Shown here one piece after another: positions 2,146-44,380 of a stretch of 64,000 nt of DNA. Each line of letters starts with the position of its first letter. Position 1 is the first letter of the stretch. The notes beneath the pieces are model-generated. The model saw only the letters and a list, made by a program, of their open reading frames with translations, did no database searches and was not told the DNA's origin. The DNA comes from Escherichia coli. Its GTDB lineage: Bacteria; Pseudomonadota; Gammaproteobacteria; Enterobacterales; Enterobacteriaceae. A program made the position numbers and the translations under genes. The stretch is taken from the NCBI RefSeq assembly GCF_016903815.1, contig NZ_CP069973.1; one strand, 5' to 3'.

Positions 2146-5100
2146 TCAGGCCAGCTCGTCCCAGATATAATCGCTGAATTTATCAAGCAGGTTGTCGAGA
2201 TTATCGTCAAAGGTTCTTTGTAGCATCGCCTTACCGCCGCGGCGGTGGAAGTTGCCGGTTTTGAAGACATCGTCGTCGAGCACCACTTTCTCTTTCAGCG
2301 CCTGCGCTAAACGATCGAGCCAGCTTAATTGCTCGCTGCTCCAGTCGTTTTCACCCTTAATGCGCGTCAGCGCGTGATCGACACGTTCCTCAAACGGTTT
2401 CAGCGCATCGCCCACCGCAGCGCGGCGAATATGACCAATCAGCCGGGCGGCGATATCTTCATTGCGCGTCTCTTTCCATGCTTTGCGCAGGGAAGATTCC
2501 TCAAAATGCTGGCGGTCAAACCACTCCTGGAGCTCGACCAGCCCTTTACGGGTGAGATCGCGCGGGCGATTGATCACCGCCTGCAATGCCGGCTGCGCGT
2601 TCGGGGAACGTTGCACCAGCGAGTCAAAGGCTTCGAGGAAATCCTGCGGCGTGTCGTAATCACCGTACAGCGATTTTACACTCACCACTTCATCGTCGAT
2701 ATCGAGGAAGATCGGCGCATCATTCAGGTTGTTGATGTCCGTTTTCAGCTTTTCCAGACGGGCGATAAAGCCAGGCAGTTTGTTAAAGACTTCGGCGCTC
2801 CAGTGCGGCCCTTTTTCCCGCAGGCGCGAGGCGAAGCCGTTAAAGTTCACGCCCGCCGCGTCCTGGCATAGCTCATCCAGACGACGCACCTGTTTATCTA
2901 TCGTTTCGCTGCGGTCACGGTTAAACGTGGCCAGGCCGATGATGCGCTGGAGCTTCGCCACCAATTGTTCATGGCTGTGCTCGGCAAAGCTACGGCCATC
3001 CGCTTCGGTGATTTTATAGGTTTCTGAATCGGTAATTTCATTGACCAGCGTTTGCAGTTCCACCTTCGGACGCACCACCACCGGACGCATGGTGTCGACG
3101 CTCTCCAGCGTGCTGTAGATATCGACACAGTCGAAAATCTTAAAGCTGGTTTTATTCACGTCCGGGCATAAGCGCGTGGCGCGGCCTTTCATCTGCTCGT
3201 ACAGAATACGGCTGCGTACTTTACGCAGGAACACGATATTACAGATCGACGGAATATCGACGCCGGTTGTCAGCAGGTCGACGGTTACCACGATATTGGG
3301 CAGCCGCTCTTTATTGAAGCGGGTGATCATGGTCTGCACTTTGCGCGCGTCTTTATCGGCATCACCGGTGATCTTGATGATCGCGTCGTGCTCCAGTTGC
3401 GGATACTTTTTCTTGAACGCGGTACGCAACTCTTCCACCACCATATCGGCATGGGCATTGGTAACGCAGAAGACCAGCGTTTTTTGCGACCCGGTCGGGT
3501 CAAGGTAGTTGGTGAGCTCGTTACAGACGGCGCGGTTAAACGCCGGGATCACCAGGCCACGGTTAAAGTCGGCGACCTCAAAATCCTGATCGTCTTCCAG
3601 GGTATCGTTGATCACTTCTCCCTGCGGGCTGATGCGCTCTACCTGTTCGCCCTTGGAGAGATAAACCCCCTCCTGGGCGTTGCGGGTGATGATCTGAATC
3701 GGCGGATCCTGGTCGATCAGAAAACCGTCGATAACCGCGGTACGGTAGGTATAACGGTAAACCGGCTCGCCGAAAATCTGCACCGTATGCAGCGCCGGGG
3801 TGGCGGTGAGGGCGATTTTTACCGCATCGAAGTGATCGAGAATGCGACGGTAGGCAGAAACGTAATCCAGCTGGCTGCGGAACTGCAGCTCGCCTTCGGT
3901 CTGCTCTTTATCGAGAATATAGCCGCGATGCGCTTCATCGACGACGATACAGTCGTAACGGGCCACCGGCATCGGTTCATCTGATTGTAGGGTGCGTTTC
4001 ACCAGCGACTGTACGGTGGCAACGTGAATTTTGGTGCTGTCTTCGGGGAATTTATCCGTCAGCCCTTTAATGTCGAAAATGCTGTTGAAGGTGTCGCCGT
4101 TAATACGCGTATCTTCAAACGCCCCCAGTGCCTGCTCGCCAAGAGAACGGCGATCGACAAGGAAGAGAATGCGTTTAAAACGCTGGGACTGGATCAGGCG
4201 GAACATCATGGCAATTGCGGTGCGGGTTTTACCGGTACCGGTCGCCATCGCCAGCAGGATCTCTTGTTGACCCTTGACGATTGCCTTTTCCACCGCGCGG
4301 ACGGCATCTTCCTGGTAATAACGCAGGCCCAGCTCGCTCATGCCCGGGTTATCGGCAAACCACTGATTCTGTTTTTGCGGTTCGCTGCCGAGCATTTCCA
4401 GCAGCTCTTCCGGGCGATGCCACTCGGGTAAGGCTTTCGACATATTGCGGGTATCACGCACGTCGCGATACCAGATGCCACTTTTAGTCTTCATTGCTGC
4501 GCGATATTCGCGCCCGTTGGTGGAGTAGCAGAAGGGGATTTTAAACCGTTGTTGGCCGCTGGTGTCCTGCCAGCTAGTTTCATACTCCGGCACAGCTTCA
4601 TGCACTTCATCCGGTGAGTAATGCTCAAGCAAGGTTTCCCGCAGGAAGCCATTATCGAAGCATTTGCTGTAGCGATACGACTCATTGAGCTTGCCGGGAA
4701 CGTCGATATTTTTACGTTTCGCCTCTACCACCGCGATGGGCTTGAGGCCGACAAACAGCACATAATCCGCAAAGCCCTGATTACCCGTTTCATCTTTCCC
4801 GGTCGGCCATTCGGCAATGGCTTTATTGACGCCGGGTTCCGGGCGTGCGCCTTTGGAGAAGCGCAGGGTTTTGCTATCGGCCTGCCAGCCTGCTTTACGC
4901 AGTTGCGCGTCAATCAGGAAGCGACTCTCTTCTTCGCTAAGGTTGAGTGTGCGCTTGATGGCCTGATCGGTAATTTCTTTGTGGTAAGCCTTACGTTCCT
5001 GTTCGGTCTGTTTGGCCAGCTCCGCGTTCTTCTCGGCGAGCTGTGCTTCCAGCGCCGCAAGGCGAGCCTGGGTTTGCGCTTCTGTTTCCTGCTGTTTGCC

Positions 5101-43205: not shown

Positions 43206-43925
43206 ATGGCTACCCCACACATTAATGCAGAAATGGGCGATTTCGCTGACGTAGTTTTGATGCCAGGCGACCCGCTGCGTGCGAAGTATATTGCTGAAAC
43301 TTTCCTTGAAGATGCCCGTGAAGTGAATAACGTTCGCGGTATGCTGGGCTTCACCGGTACTTACAAAGGCCGCAAAATTTCCGTAATGGGTCACGGTATG
43401 GGTATCCCGTCCTGCTCCATCTACACCAAAGAACTGATCACCGATTTCGGCGTGAAGAAAATTATCCGCGTAGGCTCCTGTGGCGCTGTTCTGCCACACG
43501 TAAAACTGCGCGACGTCGTTATCGGTATGGGTGCCTGCACCGATTCCAAAGTTAACCGCATCCGTTTTAAAGACCATGACTTTGCCGCTATCGCTGACTT
43601 TGACATGGTGCGTAACGCAGTAGATGCAGCTAAAGCACTGGGCATTGATGCTCGCGTTGGTAACCTGTTCTCCGCTGACCTGTTCTACTCTCCGGACGGC
43701 GAAATGTTCGACGTGATGGAAAAATACGGCATCCTCGGCGTGGAAATGGAAGCGGCTGGTATCTACGGCGTCGCTGCAGAATTTGGCGCGAAAGCCCTGA
43801 CCATCTGCACCGTGTCTGACCACATCCGTACTCACGAGCAGACCACTGCCGCTGAGCGTCAGACCACCTTCAACGACATGATCAAAATCGCACTGGAATC
43901 CGTTCTGCTGGGCGATAAAGAGTAA
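43206..43925 (+). CDS. deoD: Purine nucleoside phosphorylase DeoD (about 239 aa)
   Basis: ORF track 258 aa; start set to the internal Met ([31 protein letters not shown]). Confidence 0.9.
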
Positions 43926-43957
43926 TTGTGTTTTGCTGAAAGGCGATTGCCTTGTGA

Positions 43958-43987
43958 AGCCGGAGCGGGAGACTGCTCCGGCTTTTT
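43958..43987 (+). terminator. Rho-independent terminator of the deo operon
   Basis: agccggagcgggagactgctccggct hairpin followed by ttttt. Confidence 0.7.
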
Positions 43988-44085
43988 AGTATCTATTCAT
44001 CAATAGCAACTGATTTATAGATTTACTATTATTTTTCATATGGATAGAAAATAAAATCCATTCAAGTATCTATTCACGAATCTAT

Positions 44086-44349
44086 TCATTTATGTTCAGC
44101 CGTCATCCAGGAAGGGCATATCAGCAACTCTGGTGGACAACCATAAATTTCTGCCATTTTGCTTTTGATGTTTGAGCTAAGCCGTTCCGTCTTTTCGATC
44201 TGTTTTAGAGAATTAATCGAGATACCTAACATTTTACTTACTTCAGCAAGCGATAATTTATGCCTGATACGCACGGCGGCTAGCCAGGAAATACGCTGGC
44301 TGAACATTAAATTGATAATCTCCCGTTCCTGGTTTTCCAGATCGATCAT
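44086..44349 (-). CDS. Small Xre-type helix-turn-helix protein (87 aa) at the position K-12 uses for yjjJ
   Basis: ORF track 87 aa with HTH segment LSLAEVSKMLGISINSLKQIE; ATG preceded by agggaagga; 31 bp downstream of lplA on the same strand; no kinase domain follows. Confidence 0.55.
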   Translation of the reverse strand: MIDLENQEREIINLMFSQRISWLAAVRIRHKLSLAEVSKMLGISINSLKQIEKTERLSSNIKSKMAEIYGCPPELLICPSWMTAEHK

Positions 44350-44380
44350 ATTTCCTTCCCTGGATATTTTAATCAGCGAG

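What the first reader, a model, noticed from the sequence alone, without database searches (positions are those of the whole stretch)
44086..44349. Free-standing 87-aa HTH gene at the position K-12 uses for the HipA-like kinase yjjJ
From the K-12 map I recall a roughly 1.3 kb gene (yjjJ, an HTH domain fused to a HipA-like kinase) between deoD and lplA. Here the deoD-lplA interval is only about 455 bp and holds just an 87-aa Xre-type HTH ORF, with its own RBS and not overlapping lplA. Either the kinase domain has been deleted leaving the DNA-binding module, or this lineage carries a different small regulator at a toxin-type locus. Both are biologically interesting.
Basis: partly seen in the sequence, partly recalled or inferred. 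Interest (0 to 1): 0.5.

Follow-up and report, generated by a model that had tools for sequence, protein, structure and literature searches.

The report
Orphan antitoxin-like regulator replacing hipH
Between deoD and lplA this E. coli carries a small stand-alone DNA-binding protein gene, derived from the DNA-binding half of a mobile-element antitoxin, where K-12 has the toxin kinase gene yjjJ/hipH; this is the common state in E. coli (about 75% of complete genomes), so it is real and uncharacterised but fairly ordinary.

Summary
An 87-aa Xre-type HTH ORF lies at 44086-44349 (-), 31 bp downstream of lplA, in a 455-bp deoD-lplA interval. K-12 has the 1332-bp yjjJ/hipH there on the opposite strand.

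The ORF is not a leftover of YjjJ: it is on the other strand and shows no sequence similarity. It is the majority allele, present in 4062 of 5426 complete E. coli genomes. yjjJ is in 1348, and the two counts sum to 5410, so the alleles appear mutually exclusive.

The window still carries the yjjJ upstream region. This is one distal plus three tandem ATCTATTCA repeats and the yjjJ ATG, the same layout found upstream of yjjJ in Citrobacter, Salmonella and another genus. So the yjjJ coding sequence was replaced and its regulatory DNA was left as a relic.

The 87-aa protein matches the C-terminal HTH half of ~120-aa antitoxins (hhalign 99.5%, E 4e-22). In all four phage and plasmid examples inspected, those antitoxins directly follow a ParE/RelE toxin gene. 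The E. coli protein lacks their N-terminal ~50 residues and has no toxin partner.

A 44%-identical 87-aa ortholog also follows lplA in another enterobacterial genus. dN/dS is about 0.1-0.7, and some lineages carry disrupted copies.

Most likely it is a solitary small transcription factor co-transcribed with lplA. Its target is unknown.

The parts
43207..43925 (+). deoD (purine-nucleoside phosphorylase). This is the left conserved flank of the variable site.
43957..43984 (+). deoD terminator hairpin (10-bp arms, 8-nt loop) followed by TTTTT. It is shared by both alleles and is the only hairpin downstream of the 87-aa ORF on the minus strand.
   Evidence: (I6)
43991..43999 (+). Distal ATCTATTCA repeat of the yjjJ/hipH upstream region. 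It is conserved in both E. coli alleles and upstream of yjjJ in Citrobacter, Salmonella and locus L012.
44001..44055 (+). Allele-specific ~55-bp spacer at the position of the yjjJ promoter. It is only 41% identical to the K-12 spacer, which is as diverged as the spacers are between genera, but its length is conserved.
44056..44088 (+). Three tandem repeats with a 12-bp period (ATCCATTCA, ATCTATTCA, ATCTATTCA). They are a relic of the yjjJ/hipH operator-like block, and the last copy contains the stop codon of the 87-aa ORF.
   Evidence: Copy number drops to two in L017, L010 and L011.
44092..44094 (+). Relic yjjJ start codon. Homology with the K-12 allele ends here.
44086..44349 (-). The 87-aa Xre-family HTH gene (ECs_5344 type). 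It is homologous to the C-terminal HTH half of antitoxins that are paired with ParE/RelE toxins.
44353..44361 (-). Shine-Dalgarno-like GGGAAGGA upstream of the ATG, conserved across the lineages compared.
44350..44380 (-). 31-bp lplA-ORF spacer. No terminator was found, and the only promoter-like match overlaps the start codon. Co-transcription with lplA is inferred from this.
44381..45397 (-). lplA, the right conserved flank. Homology with the K-12 allele resumes at its stop codon, which is TAA here and TAG in yjjJ alleles.
44001..44381 (.). The whole allelic cassette that differs from K-12-type genomes: spacer, conserved repeat island and the 87-aa gene. In K-12 the matching stretch is spacer, repeats and yjjJ, about 1.4 kb.

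Best explanation
The ORF is a real, taxonomically restricted gene for a solitary Xre-family helix-turn-helix protein. It descends from the DNA-binding (C-terminal) half of an antitoxin of a toxin-first ParE/RelE toxin-antitoxin pair of the kind carried by phages and plasmids. It has lost, or never had, the N-terminal toxin-neutralising segment and the toxin gene. It sits as the last gene of the ytjB-lplA transcription unit. In the majority E. coli lineage it occupies the place of the hipH/yjjJ coding sequence, whose promoter/operator repeats and start codon remain as a slowly decaying relic.

Shown: gene identity, homology, population frequency, break points, and conservation of the repeats with yjjJ across genera. 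Inferred: the protein is made from read-through lplA transcripts, forms a dimer, and acts as a small DNA-binding repressor or regulator of an unknown target. It is not a working toxin-antitoxin module and not a YjjJ fragment.
For: Pfam HTH_3 hit at 1.2e-6. The AF2 model has pLDDT 88, with an N-terminal helix followed by a five-helix HTH. Foldseek best matches are CylR2, SinR, restriction-modification controller (C) proteins and P22 c2.

Profile-profile match to the ~120-aa family: 99.5%, E 3.7e-22, residues 9-77 aligned to 55-123. phrog_7241 matches at 3.4e-10. Four of four annotated relatives on phages and plasmids directly follow an 86-93-aa RelE/ParE-annotated toxin gene; Pfam ParE_toxin was confirmed on the one that was scanned, at 6e-11. 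The complete pair occurs in 11 E. coli genomes, annotated as a RelE toxin plus an HTH protein.

Population counts: 4062 genomes carry this allele and 1348 carry yjjJ, of 5426. Break points lie at the yjjJ ATG and the lplA stop codon. The same repeat architecture lies upstream of yjjJ in Citrobacter, Salmonella and L012.

An 87-aa ortholog with 44% identity also lies directly downstream of lplA in another genus, where LplA is 89% identical. dN/dS is 0.12-0.26 in most pairs. GC content is 41.7% against 52-57% in the flanks, which fits a foreign origin.
Against: There is no expression data, and no paper in the library mentions ECs5344 or Z5987. No own promoter or operator was found. dN/dS reaches 0.5-0.7 on one branch. 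Disrupted copies exist: a frameshift in L017, an internal deletion in L003, and what look like insertion-disrupted forms P0040 and P0074. The gene is therefore dispensable in some lineages. The Shine-Dalgarno-to-ATG spacing is short. The exhaustive search found only one full-length relative outside Escherichia, so conservation rests on few independent lineages.
Confidence: 0.72

Rival explanations
1. Remnant of YjjJ/HipH: the kinase domain was deleted and the ORF is YjjJ's own N-terminal HTH module.
For: The yjjJ upstream repeats and ATG are retained immediately next to the ORF. One genome (WB61) is annotated with a truncated yjjJ labelled 'transcriptional regulator'.
Against: The ORF is on the opposite strand. 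There is no protein similarity and no DNA similarity. The ORF has its own ortholog beside lplA in a genus with no yjjJ relic. The WB61 sequence contains NN at the junction, so that case is probably an assembly gap.
Confidence: 0.02
2. Decaying passenger: a non-functional fragment of a mobile-element antitoxin gene. It is kept only because it is short and linked to lplA, and has no role of its own.
For: It lacks a toxin partner and the neutralising domain. GC content is low. Frameshifted, deleted and interrupted copies exist. dN/dS reaches 0.7 on one branch. No dedicated promoter was found.
Against: The 87-codon frame is intact in 7 of 10 sampled lineages, including cryptic Escherichia clades. 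Synonymous changes outnumber non-synonymous ones per site in most pairs. An ortholog of exactly 87 aa persists in the same position in another genus at 44% identity, with the HTH core residues kept. The start codon and Shine-Dalgarno-like sequence are conserved.
Confidence: 0.2
3. Local regulator of the retained repeats: the 87-aa protein binds the ATCTATTCA repeats downstream of its stop codon. For example, it could silence the relic hipH promoter and prevent antisense transcription into itself and lplA.
For: The repeats lie within 100 bp of the gene and are well preserved in the window. In the HTH allele the distal repeat forms a 12-nt imperfect palindrome with allele-specific spacer DNA, 43991-44002 with 44011-44022 (I7). 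yjjJ-lplA is listed as a convergent excludon in K-12 (PMC12288877).
Against: The repeats are equally or better conserved upstream of yjjJ in genomes that have no 87-aa gene. The ortholog locus in the other genus has no such repeats. One 12-bp unit is lost in three HTH-allele lineages. They are direct repeats with a 12-bp period, which is not the palindrome typical of Xre dimers.
Confidence: 0.08
4. Trans-acting anti-addiction or immunity factor: the orphan HTH represses or interferes with incoming phage or plasmid ParE/RelE toxin-antitoxin operons of the related family.
For: It is homologous to the DNA-binding domain of those antitoxins. Such pairs do occur in E. coli prophages.
Against: Identity to them is only 32-38%, so shared operator specificity is unlikely. 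It lacks the neutralising N-terminal region. The related pairs are rare in E. coli, in 11 of 5426 genomes.
Confidence: 0.05

Closest known systems
HigA-type (toxin-first) antitoxins paired with ParE/RelE-superfamily toxins on phages and plasmids. Examples are phrog_7241, Pasteurella phage Pmp14 gp33, phage PPyecE_EH1910 gp290, Leclercia pZ96-1_2 WP_225988006 and Serratia WP_129941838.
   Same: The Xre HTH domain and the preceding helix are homologous (hhalign 99.5%, E 3.7e-22; 32-38% identity over residues 3-77). The conserved motifs are the same: SxLAAxR, IEK, AxIYGC.
   Different: These antitoxins are about 120 aa, with an N-terminal ~50-aa segment (YINDxxG...VLPIEEY) that is absent here. 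They directly follow a ParE_toxin gene, whereas this gene follows lplA and has no toxin. This gene is chromosomal and fixed at one site.
YjjJ/HipH (HTH-HipA-like Ser/Thr kinase toxin, clade X of Gerdes et al. 2021, PMC8262856).
   Same: It occupies exactly the same chromosomal slot between deoD and lplA. The window keeps its upstream repeat array and start codon.
   Different: There is no sequence similarity. It is on the opposite strand, is 87 aa rather than 443 aa, and has no kinase domain.
HipB (88-aa Xre-type antitoxin of hipBA).
   Same: Similar size and the same broad HTH_3 superfamily.
   Different: The 87-aa protein gave no NCBIfam HipB (PRK09726) hit at E <= 1, and there is no adjacent hipA.
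Small solitary Xre/Cro-type regulators such as CylR2, SinR N-terminal domain, restriction-modification C proteins and P22 c2/434 Cro.
   Same: The predicted fold matches (Foldseek probability 1.0, TM 0.5-0.6 over 53-60 residues).
   Different: Sequence identity is 20-30% and E-values are only 0.02-0.1. This protein has an extra N-terminal helix and a C-terminal tail. Its operator and partners are unknown.

Membership tests
Xre/Cro-C1 HTH (Pfam HTH_3 PF01381) | Significant match to the family profile | tested here: met
   HTH_3 at E 1.2e-6 over residues 23-76. HTH_19, HTH_31 and HTH_25 also match below 1e-3.
Xre/Cro-C1 HTH (Pfam HTH_3 PF01381) | Five-helix lambda-repressor-like fold | tested here: met
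   AF2 pLDDT 88 with helices 22-29, 34-41, 45-54, 59-69 and 73-76. Foldseek top hits are CylR2, SinR, 434 Cro and P22 c2.
Xre/Cro-C1 HTH (Pfam HTH_3 PF01381) | Sequence-specific DNA binding as a dimer | not testable with these tools
   No operator was identified, and an experiment is needed.
Type II antitoxin of a toxin-first ParE/RelE pair (HigA-like) | Homology to the antitoxin's HTH domain | tested here: met
   hhalign 99.5%, E 3.7e-22. tblastn hits at 1e-6 to 7e-7.
Type II antitoxin of a toxin-first ParE/RelE pair (HigA-like) | Cognate toxin gene immediately upstream in one operon | tested here: not met
   The upstream gene is lplA at a 31-bp distance, and no ParE-like ORF lies in 43926-44380. 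The relatives inspected all have one.
Type II antitoxin of a toxin-first ParE/RelE pair (HigA-like) | N-terminal toxin-neutralising segment (~50 aa) | tested here: not met
   In alignment A4 the 87-aa protein starts at about residue 55 of the long forms.
YjjJ/HipH | Sequence similarity to YjjJ (HTH residues 1-100 or HipA_C kinase core) | tested here: not met
   The best BLASTP result is E 0.21 over 6 residues. There is no HipA_C hit.
YjjJ/HipH | Same strand and collinear with the conserved upstream repeat array and ATG | tested here: not met
   The ORF is on the minus strand and reads towards the repeats.
HipB antitoxin | NCBIfam HipB equivalog (PRK09726) above cutoff, and an adjacent hipA | tested here: not met
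   No HipB model hit at E <= 1, and there is no hipA-like neighbour.

The most novel reading that the evidence does not exclude
The deoD-lplA slot may be an old two-state locus kept polymorphic across Escherichia, and possibly in other enterobacteria. In this reading, a HipH toxin-kinase state and an orphan-antitoxin-HTH state are functional alternatives. The HTH protein, or antisense transcription from the retained hipH promoter/operator, would take over a regulatory role at lplA or elsewhere that matters when hipH is absent. The inter-genus-level divergence of the promoter spacer between the two E. coli alleles (41% identity) would then reflect long-term balancing selection or repeated introgression rather than a single neutral replacement.
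Probability: 0.1. Interest if true: 0.55.

Novelty: new member of a known kind. Interest (0 to 1): 0.3.

Why it matters
Three points follow.

1. hipH/yjjJ is studied in K-12 and some UPEC strains as a persistence and genotoxicity toxin. About three quarters of complete E. coli genomes lack it and carry an unrelated small regulator in its place, so conclusions about HipH do not transfer to most strains.

2. The comparison shows a strongly conserved repeat array (ATCTATTCA, one distal copy plus three tandem copies abutting the ATG) upstream of hipH in at least four genera. This is a concrete candidate operator for a gene whose regulation is unresolved. Reg-Seq found two repressor sites in the promoter, and ChIP-exo of YjjJ found no binding.

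3. The 87-aa gene is an example of a solitary HTH derived from an antitoxin and fixed in a housekeeping operon. This is a known kind of event, but this protein is uncharacterised.

Tried and rejected
The scan with A3 returned only two Escherichia loci, so the cross-genus distribution of the 87-aa gene could not be mapped. The genus of the L007 ortholog stays unknown: its lplA is about 80% identical at the DNA level to those of E. coli, Citrobacter and L012, and 78% to Salmonella's.

2. Consensus promoter scans were uninformative. They miss even the K-12 yjjJ promoter, so I cannot say whether the relic promoter is active.

3. The listing of cluster members gave no organism names for the 70%-identical YjjJ group or for P0079.

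4. The '72%-identical homolog' P0033 (L005, L006) was rejected. All its differences from the E. coli sequence are C-to-T type, so it looks like an assembly of bisulfite-style reads.

5. The WB61 'truncated yjjJ' allele was rejected as evidence for a kinase-deleted form, because NN sits at the junction.

6. NCBIfam and PADLOC gave only generic sub-threshold HTH hits. The PDB sequence searches gave only generic Xre repressors.

7. The literature searches found nothing on ECs5344 or Z5987, and nothing on the alternative allele in the yjjJ papers I looked at.

Full report
**Observation**

The window is E. coli and is 100% identical to strain 7/2 across the site. deoB, deoD (43207-43925, +), an 87-aa ORF (44086-44349, -), lplA (44381-45397, -), ytjB and serB follow one another. 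The deoD-lplA interval is 455 bp. The ORF has an ATG start, a GGGAAGGA Shine-Dalgarno-like sequence, and a 31-bp gap to the lplA stop codon.

Pfam HTH_3 matches residues 23-76 at E 1.2e-6. PGAP annotates the same ORF as a helix-turn-helix domain-containing protein (WP_000566150.1), and it is ECs_5344 in O157:H7 Sakai. An ORF this long arises in 1.7% of shuffles of the interval, so the case rests on homology and conservation rather than length. K-12 MG1655 does carry yjjJ (1332 bp, 443 aa, + strand) between deoD and lplA.

**Population survey**

A 901-bp probe across the site finds 4062 of 5426 complete E. coli genomes with the whole window-type allele. The yjjJ coding sequence is found in 1348 genomes, always on the chromosome. 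The two counts sum to 5410, so the alleles behave as mutually exclusive, although per-genome overlap could not be checked.

The small-ORF allele is the majority. It is present in Nissle 1917, O157 Sakai, NCTC86 and the E. coli C derivative WG5. The yjjJ allele is present in K-12, ST131 and other lineages, with 96-100% identity among them.

**Is it a YjjJ remnant?**

No. The ORF is on the opposite strand. BLASTP against YjjJ gives nothing better than E 0.21 over six residues. BLASTN with 7-nt words finds no similarity between the swapped segments.

**Break points**

Homology between the alleles runs from deoD to window position 44094 and resumes at 44382. The left end is the yjjJ start codon (44092-44094). 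The right end is the lplA stop codon, which is TAA here and TAG in yjjJ alleles. The last two codons and the stop codon of the 87-aa ORF lie in the shared flank.

The shared flank is itself a mosaic. The deoD terminator and a first ATCTATTCA copy (43991) are nearly identical in both alleles. A spacer of about 55 bp (44001-44055) is only 41% identical but has the same length. A block of three tandem 12-bp repeats plus the ATG (44056-44094) is 95% identical.

**What the repeats are**

yjjJ also lies between deoD and lplA in Citrobacter freundii, in Salmonella enterica and in an unidentified genus. All of them have the same upstream layout: ATCTATTCA, a variable spacer of about 55 bp, then three tandem repeats ending 3-4 nt before the ATG. 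The spacer carries TTGACA in Salmonella and L012, and in L012 there is a 10/12 promoter match just before the tandem block.

Spacer identity between any two genera is 35-55%, while the tandem block is 80-100% identical. The repeats are therefore a constrained cis element of yjjJ/hipH. Their position at and after the -10 region suggests an operator; this is an inference.

The literature neither confirms nor contradicts this. Reg-Seq reports two repressor sites in the yjjJ promoter (PMC7567609). hipH transcription responds to c-di-GMP through its promoter region (PMC11452175). ChIP-exo of tagged YjjJ found no binding under the conditions used (PMC8464067).

The window keeps the whole array plus the ATG, so its allele derives from a chromosome that once had yjjJ. 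Only the coding sequence was replaced. In three small-ORF lineages (L017, L010, L011) one 12-bp unit has been lost, which fits relaxed constraint on a relic.

The window's spacer is as far from K-12's as the spacers of different genera are from each other. The two E. coli alleles therefore coalesce deeply, either by introgression from a diverged relative or as an old polymorphism. I could not resolve which.

**What the 87-aa protein is**

Word-indexed and exhaustive searches of billions of proteins find it almost only in Escherichia and Shigella, at 86-99% identity. The exception is one 87-aa protein at 44% identity (P0079). That protein is also encoded directly downstream of lplA and upstream of the deoD 3' end, in a metagenomic contig from another enterobacterial genus. 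There LplA is 89% identical and lplA DNA about 80% identical, and no yjjJ repeats are present. The lplA linkage is therefore older than Escherichia, or was transferred with flanking homology.

Weaker hits are proteins of 95-133 aa whose C-terminal halves align with residues 9-77, and phrog_7241 matches at 3.4e-10. tblastn finds such proteins on a Pasteurella phage, an enterobacterial phage, and Leclercia, Serratia, Xenorhabdus and Pasteurella plasmids.

In all four annotated cases I opened, the gene sits immediately after an 86-93-aa RelE/ParE-annotated toxin gene. Pfam ParE_toxin was confirmed on the one that was scanned, at 6e-11. The complete pair occurs in prophage-like DNA of 11 E. coli genomes, annotated as a RelE toxin plus an HTH protein.

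Profile-profile comparison of the 87-aa family with these antitoxins gives 99.5% probability and E 3.7e-22. The E. coli protein starts at about residue 55 of the long forms. It therefore lacks their N-terminal segment (YINDxxG...VLPIEEY), which by analogy with toxin-first HigA-type antitoxins is the toxin-binding part. That assignment is an inference from established knowledge and was not tested here.

AF2 gives a confident model (pLDDT 88) with an N-terminal helix, a five-helix Xre domain and a short C-terminal helix. The nearest solved folds are CylR2, SinR, restriction-modification controller (C) proteins and P22 c2/434 Cro. PDB sequence searches give the same generic family. GC content is 41.7% against 52-57% in the flanks, and the other-genus ortholog shows the same contrast. 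This is consistent with a mobile-element origin.

**Is it functional?**

Seven of ten sampled lineages keep the 87-codon frame, including cryptic Escherichia clades. Pairwise dN/dS is 0.12-0.26 for most pairs and 0.5-0.7 on the L011 branch, though the counts are small. The start codon and Shine-Dalgarno-like sequence are conserved.

Disrupted copies also exist. L017 has a frameshift and is flagged as a pseudogene by PGAP. L003 has an internal deletion. P0040 and P0074 look like forms interrupted by insertions. The gene is therefore under moderate constraint and is dispensable in some backgrounds.

No separate promoter or terminator lies in the 31-bp gap after lplA. I infer co-transcription with ytjB-lplA. 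No paper in the library mentions the gene.

**Mechanism, with its status**

Shown: it is an Xre-type HTH homologous to an antitoxin DNA-binding domain, it has no toxin partner and no neutralising segment, and it replaced the hipH coding sequence while leaving hipH's cis elements.

Inferred: it is a small dimeric DNA-binding regulator made from lplA read-through transcripts, with an unknown target. Binding to the neighbouring repeats is unlikely, because those repeats belong to yjjJ and are absent from the ortholog locus in the other genus.

Rivals kept: a non-functional passenger (about 0.2), a local regulator of the relic (about 0.08), and a trans-acting interferer with related mobile toxin-antitoxin pairs (about 0.05). 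The YjjJ-remnant idea is refuted.

**Verdict**

The finding is real and correctly located, but its framing is reversed: K-12 is the minority and this window is the norm. It is a new, uncharacterised member of a known kind, a solitary antitoxin-derived Xre regulator. The most useful by-products are the frequency of hipH absence in E. coli and the conserved repeat array upstream of hipH. Interest is modest.

Noticed in passing
window 43991-44094; L001 3292-3395; L014, L016 and L012 upstream of position 4001: A conserved ATCTATTCA array (one distal copy, a spacer of about 55 bp, then three tandem 12-bp copies abutting the ATG) lies upstream of yjjJ/hipH in E. coli, Citrobacter, Salmonella and one more genus. 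It is a candidate hipH operator, and none of the papers I read mentions it.
   Followed up: partly
window 44092-44175 (+): From the relic yjjJ ATG a 27-codon ORF (MFSRHPGRAYQQLWWTTINFCHFAFDV) runs antisense to the 3' end of the 87-aa gene. If the relic promoter is still active, it would produce an RNA antisense to the 87-aa gene and lplA.
   Followed up: no
L005, L006 (Logan SRR18740011, SRR13921544); protein P0033: The apparent 72%-identical homolog differs from the E. coli sequence only by C-to-T type changes (R to W/C, A to V, S to F/L, P to L). The flanks are about 77% identical to the window. It looks like an assembly of bisulfite-converted reads rather than a real divergent lineage.
   Followed up: partly
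L022 (E. coli WB61, NZ_CP020025.1 673687-673878): yjjJ is annotated as a truncated 'transcriptional regulator', with only about 140 bp left. The sequence has NN at the junction with lplA, so this is probably an assembly gap and not a true kinase deletion.
   Followed up: partly
L025 (E. coli XJ5.2, NZ_CP074354.1): IS200C and IS1A are inserted between deoD and yjjJ, in or next to the yjjJ upstream region.
   Followed up: no
last 120 bp of lplA, window 44381-44500, compared with L017-L024: The 3' end of lplA is unusually polymorphic among E. coli strains (90-99% identity), and the pattern does not follow the yjjJ/HTH allele class. K-12 is 99% identical to the window while Sakai-type strains are 94%. 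This suggests frequent recombination at this site.
   Followed up: partly
L026 (O157:H7 Sakai NC_002695.2 5480027-5481715): ECs_5345 'lplA' is annotated as 1689 bp and spans both lplA and ytjB. This is probably an annotation artefact in that record.
   Followed up: no
L012 2860-3823: In the unidentified genus that carries yjjJ, the deoD-yjjJ interval holds an array of REP-like repeats and a 163-aa ORF that looks like a REP-associated tyrosine transposase.
   Followed up: no
window 49825-52000: Downstream of nadR the window carries a small block of accessory-looking genes on the minus strand: a 126-aa ORF, a 138-aa ORF and a 299-aa ORF that looks like a short-chain dehydrogenase. The reference AIEC strain NRG857c is reported to have a ParE/YiaG toxin-antitoxin islet a few kb from yjjJ (PMC7232551), and Sakai has a 168-bp 'transcriptional regulator' there (ECs_5781). 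This may be another variable slot.
   Followed up: no
proteins P0040 and P0074 (E. coli genomes): Some E. coli genomes encode chimeric ORFs that share only the first ~57 residues (P0040) or the last ~32 residues (P0074) of the 87-aa protein. This suggests an insertion inside the gene in those strains. One of them is named 'GhoT/OrtT family toxin' by its source, which looks like a misannotation.
   Followed up: no
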